From NCBI GenBank assembly GCA_964016885.1, contig OZ024740.1:323702001-323766000 (forward strand): a DNA stretch of 64,000 nt, given 5' to 3'. The translations under genes and the position numbers were made by a program. This stretch comes from Eledone cirrhosa (Eukaryota). Numbering within the stretch: position 1 is the stretch's first letter; every line of letters starts with the position of its first letter. This document shows, piece after piece, positions 7,508 to 8,082 of the stretch. A model generated the notes under the pieces. It did not search any database and was not told where the DNA came from. It was given only the letters and a program-made list of their open reading frames with translations.

Positions 7508-7590
7508 AAAATTGATGAGCAGAACAAACAAACATTAAACAATCCTTTAAATAAATTAAAAAATGATTTAAATATCTACCTGTTCATAAT

Positions 7591-7669
7591 GCTATTACCG
7601 GCGGTTTCCATCCACAAAAGATTGGAAATTCGGAGAATTTCCAACGGAAAGTAGATTTCATCAGACAGC
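7591..7669 (-). ncRNA. Type I hammerhead ribozyme (family A)
   Basis: GCUGU-CUGAUGA-stem II-GAAA-CCGCCGG-UA-AUAGC. Confidence 0.8.
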
Positions 7670-7874
7670 TATTTCCTTTCTATAGGACTTAAGTCCCACG
7701 GTCTGCAAATATAATGCCAACTACCAGCTCGTATGAGTTATGGCCGTTAAAGTGACCCACACGTGACTTGGCCGCTAGAGCAAGTGGGTCACTTTAACGG
7801 CCATAACTCATACGAGCTGGTAGTTGGCATTATATTTGCGGACCATGGGACGTATGTCCTATAGAAAGGAAATA

Positions 7875-7953
7875 GCTATCTGATGAAATCTGCTTTCCGT
7901 TGGAAATTCTCCGAATTTCCAATCTTTTGTGGATGGAAACCGCCGGTAATAGC
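7875..7953 (+). ncRNA. Type I hammerhead ribozyme (family A)
   Basis: Stem I GCUAU/AUAGC, CUGAUGA 7880-7886, stem II containing UUGGAAAUUC/GAAUUUCCAA, GAAA 7936, short stem III, GUA site (cut after 7948). Confidence 0.85.
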
Positions 7954-8031
7954 ATTATGAACAGGTAGATATTTAAATCATTTTTTAATTTATTTAAAGG
8001 ATTGTTTAATGTTTGCTTGTTCTGCTCATCA

Positions 8032-8082
<51 letters not shown>

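What the first reader, a model, noticed from the sequence alone, without database searches (positions are those of the whole stretch)
7509..8035. About 530-bp near-perfect palindrome carrying one hammerhead on each strand
Seen: two 250-bp arms diverge from a 23-nt centre, each with an intact HHR. A transcript in either direction contains one sense ribozyme and can fold into long dsRNA. The same layout recurs independently in families B (35909-36186) and C (34955-35475, 36400-36752) with different centres, so fold-back looks like a routine product of insertion. Inference: such hairpins could be ADAR or Dicer substrates, relevant if the host is a cephalopod with extensive A-to-I editing.
Basis: partly seen in the sequence, partly recalled or inferred. 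Interest (0 to 1): 0.75.

Follow-up and report, generated by a model that had tools for sequence, protein, structure and literature searches.

The report
Symmetric Penelope-type hammerhead retrozyme insertion
This 527-base mirror repeat is one of several hundred insertions of a small non-coding mobile element with a predicted self-cutting RNA motif; its relatives likely get their mirror arm because both ends of a DNA cut start copying the RNA at two different fixed points, this copy is a rare symmetric exception, and no RNA from it has been seen.

Summary
The palindrome is real: 252-nt arms (7509-7760, 7784-8035), 7 mismatches, a 23-nt centre, a type I hammerhead motif in each arm, (TA)n on both sides. 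It is one insertion of a 478-nt non-coding hammerhead repeat (non-LTR retrozyme, Penelope-type ends; 403 genome matches to the ribozyme core). Head-to-head arms are routine, but fold-back is not. In 40 of 42 clean two-armed copies one arm ends at fixed site A and the other at site B, 110 nt further on, and arm lengths are independent. That fits reverse transcription primed from both ends of one DNA cut. This locus is one of two A+A exceptions, both tight hairpins; snap-back of a lone cDNA (about 55%) is slightly favoured over two primings at A. The hammerhead core is intact but has a non-canonical pair at the base of stem II and a 3-bp stem III, and in a read-through RNA it would be buried in the duplex. 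The ADAR/Dicer idea is untested: no RNA run, host lineage not checked, no A>G excess among inherited changes. This scan noted the two-ended mechanism before in other families of this genome.

The parts
7509..7783 (-). Left arm including the 23-nt centre: 5'-truncated copy of the 478-nt monomer (about M286/291-478 plus M1-87; M1 = first base after the predicted ribozyme cut), 3' end at site A
7784..8035 (+). Right arm: shorter 5'-truncated copy (M314-478 plus M1-87), 3' end at site A, nested within the left arm
7761..7783 (-). Unpaired centre, family sequence present only in the left arm; 5-nt junction overlap at 7784-7788 (4 of 5 match)
7875..7953 (+). Type I hammerhead motif: stem I 7875-7879/7949-7953, core 7880-7886, long stem II 7888-7934, GAAA from 7936, 3-bp stem III, predicted cut after 7948; A.G at 10.1-11.1
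7591..7669 (-). Mirror hammerhead motif, predicted cut after 7596; private change at 7666 keeps stem I as a G.U pair
7689..7704 (-). Short patch of the left arm carrying alleles of another lineage (370A, 382T, 385A) in a background shared with the right arm
7957..8035 (+). Long predicted hairpin directly 5' of site A (mirrored at 7509-7587)
6875..7508 (.). (TA)n-rich microsatellite, left target flank
8036..8209 (.). (TA)n microsatellite, right target flank
24252..24850 (.). Second copy of the same family in the window with the usual A+B layout (short - arm ending at A, + arm ending at B)

Best explanation
This palindrome is a head-to-head insertion, in a (TA)n microsatellite, of a 478-nt non-coding hammerhead repeat that is likely mobilised by a Penelope-like reverse transcriptase, and it is a rare symmetric exception in a family whose two-armed copies almost always end at two different fixed sites. 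Shown: monomer, tandem copies, fixed 3' ends A and B (110-nt tail between them), (TA)n targets, the A+B rule, independent arm lengths. Inferred for the family: the endonuclease cuts both strands in (TA)n; each 3'-OH primes cDNA on the element RNA (uncleaved multimer or circle, since 124 of 152 arms cross the ribozyme cut site), one at A and one at B; the two truncated cDNAs are joined head to head through short microhomology. Inferred for this locus (about 55%): only site A was primed, the cDNA stopped after about 280 nt, its 3' end snapped back onto a near-match 23 nt away and copied itself out to site A and the TA run; a 16-90-nt patch of the left arm was later overwritten from another lineage. 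The locus holds less than one monomer per strand, so it could not release a new monomer: likely a dead-end copy without host function.
For: Family: 403 matches to the 24-nt core, 0 for the reversed control; 478-nt tandem units. 142 of 152 arm 3' ends at A (85) or B (57); 129 of those 142 followed by a TA run. Two-armed clean loci: 40 A+B, 2 A+A, 0 B+B of 42 (p about 5e-11 against independent choice). End census on contigs C1-C4 by a second method (loci partly shared): 33 A+B, 2 A+A, 0 B+B head-to-head, plus 1 complex and 1 tail-to-tail B+B cluster. Sibling 525-nt family: 7 of 7 two-armed loci A+B among 18 loci. Arm starts uncorrelated (rho -0.21, p 0.19), median offset 255 nt; junction overlap of at least 1 nt in 31 of 42. 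Arms usually share a lineage: partner nearest or tied in 15 of 25 loci. In vitro precedent: a PLE protein cuts and extends both strands and starts at two sites bounding the tail (PMC11167929). This locus: A+A, nested arm, 28-nt offset; both A+A loci are tight hairpins against 2 of 40 A+B loci (Fisher p 0.007); arms share background alleles 442C and 461G.
Against: No autonomous partner found: the monomer matched none of 30 PLE loci beyond its own inserted copy. No RNA, circle or cleavage shown. For snap-back: the arms differ by a linked lineage patch that point mutation would rarely give (P about 0.001), so a later conversion has to be added; the p includes this locus, which was picked for being a tight palindrome, leaving one independent case (13% by chance). 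For two-ended priming on one RNA: in 10 of 25 loci a copy elsewhere is closer than the partner arm; PMC11167929 saw no difference in start site between strands; non-nesting (22 of 42) alone does not exclude a free hairpin trimmed asymmetrically.
Confidence: 0.7

Rival explanations
1. Same element and enzyme, but this locus also arose by two-ended priming, with both ends using site A on two units of a heterogeneous multimer RNA or on two RNA molecules; the tight symmetry is chance plus the reader's selection.
For: The left arm's 370A/382T/385A patch marks another lineage (382T with 385A in 9 other units; P about 0.001 from random changes on identical arms). Tandem units inside one arm can differ at recurrent sites (L065: 5 of 6 differences). 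The other A+A locus also differs at polymorphic site 462. Junction microhomology is expected under both models.
Against: Breaks the 40-of-42 A+B rule. Outside the patch both arms have the same background, and the left arm lacks that lineage's alleles at 293, 295, 307, 397, 420, 450 and 462, which looks like a conversion tract. Both A+A loci are tight hairpins.
Confidence: 0.35
2. Self-priming model from the literature: all inverted copies come from a hairpin intermediate (self-priming on an antisense template), and the endonuclease then trims the ends to A and B.
For: Proposed from palindromic junctions in rotifer Penelopes (PMC3846280); tails suggested to result from endonuclease resolution (PMC8557442). 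Arms often share a lineage. 4 of 42 loci have offsets of 30 nt or less modulo 478.
Against: 0 of 40 A+B loci have arm starts within 30 nt in the same-unit register (3.4 expected by shuffling), median 255 nt; in 4 of 40 the arms share no sequence in that register; 4 of 42 tight junctions is no more than the 13% expected by chance. In vitro the tail limits are reverse-transcription start sites (PMC11167929).
Confidence: 0.15
3. The palindrome is a functional or at least processed dsRNA source (ADAR or Dicer substrate) of the host.
For: Predicted 250-bp duplex on either strand. Long near-perfect dsRNA drives hyper-editing across animals, including a palindromic frog repeat, and octopus has an exceptionally high share of such loci (PMC5625713, passages).
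Against: No host exon recognised in the window (0 of 62 frames above a Pfam cut-off). No strand excess of A>G among private (32 vs 40) or rare (57 vs 77) changes; this tests only editing inherited through retrotransposition. The structure is explained by insertion alone. Host lineage not tested.
Confidence: 0.1
4. Assembly or library artefact (chimeric fold-back read).
For: No read or contig laid spans the centre or carries this locus's alleles at 7666 and 7768; those runs may be other individuals or reduced representation.
Against: 7 arm mismatches including a natural lineage patch; both outer ends fall on the family's fixed site A; the same layout occurs at dozens of loci.
Confidence: 0.03

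Closest known systems
Metazoan non-LTR retrozymes (PMC7229834, passages; bioRxiv 10.64898/2026.07.22.740005, introduction to discussion)
   Same: Non-coding, low-GC (36%) monomer of a few hundred nt with one type I hammerhead; dispersed monomers and tandem copies; short stem III that could pair as a dimer; proposed dependence on PLEs.
   Different: Described as direct tandem repeats; 'inverted' occurs 0 times in the first paper and once (a reference title) in the second. Here half the loci are head-to-head with fixed A/B ends. Monomer 478 nt is above the 150-450 of the first paper but within the 51-972 of the second. Expression, circles and cleavage not shown here.
EN+ Penelope-like elements: pLTR, inverted 5'-truncated copy, tail, (TA)n targets (PMC8557442 and PMC3846280, passages)
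   Same: Head-to-head inverted truncated copy, optional extension at one end only, microsatellite targets, hammerhead upstream of the 3' end, microhomology junctions.
   Different: No ORF; tail 110 nt rather than 30-40; no homology to the PLE loci tested; this locus lacks the tail on both sides.
Poseidon_Ac in vitro system (PMC11167929, main text read)
   Same: Two internal reverse-transcription starts bounding the tail; both DNA strands cut and extended in AT-rich DNA; uncleaved RNA used as template; protein predicted dimeric.
   Different: That study saw no strand difference in start site and no pairing rule; here one end A and one end B in 40 of 42. Its start sites are not homologous to the target, whereas A and B here end in T-rich/TATA sequence that merges with (TA)n.
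L1 twin priming
   Same: Two primers on the two strands of one target give an inverted 5' part joined by microhomology.
   Different: L1 second priming is at variable internal sites and does not duplicate long sequence; here both sites are fixed and the arms overlap by up to a full monomer.

Membership tests
Non-LTR retrozyme | Type I hammerhead fold with conserved core | tested here: met
   Core and stems I-III kept in 114 complete copies, with pair-preserving changes in stem II (A-T/C-G at 418-464, T-A/C-G at 420-462); sibling family changes stems I, II and III compatibly (read by eye). Deviation: 10.1-11.1 never Watson-Crick; no Rfam hit.
Non-LTR retrozyme | Short low-GC monomer in tandem repeats | tested here: met
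   478-nt period, 36% GC, 41 of 152 arms longer than one monomer.
Non-LTR retrozyme | Non-coding, no LTR-type structure | tested here: met
   No Pfam hit above cut-off for frames over the element; ends fall at A/B in (TA)n. PBS and PPT not searched.
Non-LTR retrozyme | Two ribozymes in tandem on one strand (active copy as defined in the 2026 preprint) | tested here: not met
   This locus has one per strand; met at other loci of the family such as L047, L048, L050, L051. This copy is a truncated daughter.
Non-LTR retrozyme | Self-cleavage, linear and circular RNA | not testable with these tools
   No RNA holder listed; needs bench work.
Penelope-like element (autonomous) | ORF with RT and GIY-YIG endonuclease | tested here: not met
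   None in the element or shared upstream of copies. Open PLE-like ORFs of about 750 aa exist elsewhere in the genome (assigned from motifs recalled, Pfam gave only weak GIY-YIG hits).
Penelope-like element (insertion signature) | Inverted 5'-truncated copy, head to head | tested here: met
   38 of 76 sampled loci; 2 of 76 segment as tail-to-tail with odd ends.
Penelope-like element (insertion signature) | Tail at one end only | tested here: met
   40 of 42 in the family, 7 of 7 in the sibling; not met at this locus (A+A).
Penelope-like element (insertion signature) | Microsatellite or AT-rich target | tested here: met
   129 of 142 A/B ends followed by a TA run; both sides in 36 of 42 two-armed loci.
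Penelope-like element (non-autonomous derivative) | Homology to the pLTR of an autonomous PLE | tested here: inconclusive
   No match in 30 loci of one PLE group; other PLE groups of the genome were not examined.

The most novel reading that the evidence does not exclude
Penelope-type enzymes insert as a pair that primes the two ends of one cut from two different fixed sites of the same RNA (A+B rule), and when the second priming fails the lone cDNA can snap back to give the rare symmetric palindrome seen here. Thousands of such insertions from many hammerhead families would seed the genome with long near-perfect hairpins and, if the host is an octopus, could be a main source of its unexplained excess of dsRNA and hyper-editing.
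Probability: 0.3. Interest if true: 0.7.

Novelty: new member of a known kind. Interest (0 to 1): 0.42.

Why it matters
How Penelope-like elements make their inverted copies and one-sided tails is stated as open in PMC8557442, and the published proposal is self-priming (PMC3846280). This family gives countable evidence for two-ended priming with an A+B rule that can be tested in the existing in vitro system, and ties animal retrozymes to PLE machinery by their ends. The locus itself is most useful as the exception that may show a second route. As a host-functional dsRNA it has no support yet.

Tried and rejected
The repeat finder on the window returned only TA-run pairs in its top list; a self-BLAST was used instead. 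Rfam: no hammerhead hit; miRNA hits are hairpin artefacts far below gathering score. First reading that the arm differences prove two templates was weakened when the full haplotype table showed only a short patch. First reading that non-nested arms alone refute fold-back was replaced by the arm-start test. ADAR imprint in inherited changes: none in private or rare classes; the 'all changes' class gives A>G/T>C ratio 1.38 (p 0.002) but counts inherited alleles repeatedly and other classes are skewed as much or more. Autonomous partner: not found. The bacterial promoter scan does not apply. Host lineage was not determined. Dropped rows: 4 of the 80 loci behind the first 100 hits were not fetched; 2 of 44 simple two-armed loci (L071, L109) were left out for ends at neither site; 7 complex or tail-to-tail loci were left out of the A/B count; L161 and L170 were duplicates. 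Samples are biased to copies with the core motif (76 loci) or high BLAST score (19 loci). Literature searches for a two-ended model in print found none, but the library lacks most subscription papers, including the older Penelope structure papers, and no supplements were read.

Full report
Observation. The arms 7509-7760 and 7784-8035 pair at 245 of 252 positions around a 23-nt centre. A hammerhead core reads outwards in each arm (7880 on +, 7664 on -), and (TA)n runs flank both ends. The centre is family sequence that belongs to the left arm, with a 5-nt overlap (4 of 5 matching) at the junction.

What the unit is. The window lies in a 3.0-Gb genome. Arm searches gave over 2,000 first-look candidates, 40 scored each, at 95-98% identity. 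A 24-nt ribozyme-core pattern matches 403 times, the reversed control 0 times. Flanks show a 478-nt monomer in tandem copies. I mapped 95 loci on it: 76 of the 80 loci behind the first 100 listed hits and 19 high-scoring extras. No shared coding sequence lies upstream of single-armed copies. This fits animal non-LTR retrozymes (PMC7229834, passages; bioRxiv 10.64898/2026.07.22.740005, parts 1-3 of 5).

The ribozyme. In 114 complete copies stems I-III and the core are kept and stem II shows pair-preserving changes. A sibling 525-nt family in the window (345 identities in 545 columns) changes all three stems compatibly. Two departures: the 10.1-11.1 position is A.G (93), A.C (18) or A.A (3), and stem III is 3 bp with a 3-nt loop whose sequence is self-complementary (dimer -12.2 kcal/mol), as in motifs that cleave better as dimers (PMC6155905, passages). 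Rfam does not recognise it. Cleavage is predicted, not shown. On either strand the antisense arm is transcribed first, and the full palindrome folds at about -432 kcal/mol with 247-248 of 252 arm pairs, against about -21 for the ribozyme, so a read-through RNA would likely be dsRNA with a buried ribozyme (inference).

Ends and layout of the family. 142 of 152 arm 3' ends fall at site A (85) or site B (57), 110 nt apart, and 129 of these run into TA. Of 76 sampled loci 36 are single-armed, 34 simple head-to-head, 4 complex head-to-head and 2 apparently tail-to-tail. Among 42 clean two-armed loci (44 less 2 with odd ends) 40 are A+B, 2 A+A, 0 B+B (p about 5e-11). An end-pattern census on C1-C4, partly the same loci, gave 33 A+B, 2 A+A, 0 B+B, 1 complex and 1 tail-to-tail cluster among 140 clusters. 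The sibling family is A+B in 7 of 7 two-armed loci out of 18. An inverted truncated copy, a one-sided tail and (TA)n targets are known PLE features (PMC8557442, passages).

Mechanism in the family. Self-priming was proposed for head-to-head Penelope copies (PMC3846280, passages). Here arm starts are uncorrelated (rho -0.21; -0.04 in the 31 sample-only loci), none of 40 is within 30 nt, the median offset is 255 nt, and in 4 of 40 the arms share no sequence in the same-unit register; 22 of 42 are not nested. Junctions overlap by at least 1 nt in 31 of 42. A purified PLE cuts and extends both strands and starts at two sites bounding its tail, though with no strand difference (PMC11167929, main text). 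Two-ended priming, A on one end and B on the other, is the best fit (about 75%). 124 of 152 arms cross the ribozyme cut site, helped by sampling on the core, and 41 exceed one monomer, so the template was uncleaved multimer or circle; I cannot separate these. Partner arms are usually related (nearest or tied in 15 of 25, not in 10), which may reflect one RNA, one source locus or later conversion. The genome holds many open RT plus GIY-YIG-like frames (clade not determined), but none of 30 loci matched the monomer.

This locus. It is one of the two A+A cases and the most symmetric in the same-unit register. Both A+A loci have offsets of 30 nt or less modulo 478, against 2 of 40 A+B loci (p 0.007); one of the two was selected for that property. 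Four of the 7 arm differences lie at 7689-7704. The left arm there has 370A, 382T and 385A, a linked lineage type (370A with 382T p 1e-9); random changes on identical arms recreate such a pair in about 0.1% of simulations. Outside that patch both arms share 442C and 461G and the left arm lacks seven other markers of that lineage. So the arms have a common background plus a foreign patch. Snap-back followed by conversion (about 55%) and two primings at A on a mosaic multimer (about 35%) both fit.

ADAR and Dicer. No RNA holder was listed; 8 runs laid show the family but not this locus. No host exon was recognised in 62 frames. Private changes show 32 A>G and 40 T>C on the sense strand (ratio 1.06, p 0.81), rare ones 57 and 77; the inflated all-changes class gives 1.38. 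Long near-perfect dsRNA is the main hyper-editing substrate and is unusually common in octopus (PMC5625713, passages), so the idea is reasonable but untested; I did not establish the host lineage.

Earlier notes. After I had reached the two-ended reading (note), the scan's index showed eight unchecked notes with the same mechanism for other hammerhead families of this genome; none for this sequence or place. They are not independent support.

Verdict. A real feature and a new member of a known kind. Interest 0.42.

Noticed in passing
window:56450-57064 (-): Sibling 525-nt hammerhead family (4,680 first-look candidates) with compatible changes in all three stems, U.U at 10.1-11.1 and the same A+B rule.
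   Followed up: partly
window:8212-8590, 23950-24230, 35902-36273 (family B); 34955-35559, 36305-36755 (family C); 10377-10637; 51399-51628; 55540-56400: At least five further hammerhead-bearing families in TA runs, most with an inverted arm and a one-sided extension; the left arm of C at 34955 is split by a SINE-like insert (34979-35162).
   Followed up: partly
window:12122-13138, 57981-58171, 63483-63671; 34786-34930; 50974-51261: Other palindromic inserts in TA runs in which the motif scan found no hammerhead core; possibly further PLE-driven families.
   Followed up: no
L086:1469-1978: A unit lacking the A-to-B tail (about 98 nt lost at a 4-nt repeat), giving a 380-nt period.
   Followed up: partly
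L115, L046: Junctions that turn at the element's own hairpins: a zero-loop turn at the stem I 5' strand and a turn inside stem II.
   Followed up: partly
L154, L155, L156: Young PLE-like family with open frames of about 750 aa; L156 is a 5-kb head-to-head pair of coding copies at 97% identity.
   Followed up: partly
window:26594-27499 (-), 31225-31710 (-): Broken PLE-like RT and GIY-YIG fragments.
   Followed up: no
window:37695-46143: 8.4-kb satellite of a 37-nt unit, about 230 copies at 95% match.
   Followed up: no
window:71-458, 15561-16209, 30395-30617, 49445-49912, 58623-59278, 60154-60555: Abundant SINE-like repeat of about 190-225 nt, often in tandem.
   Followed up: no
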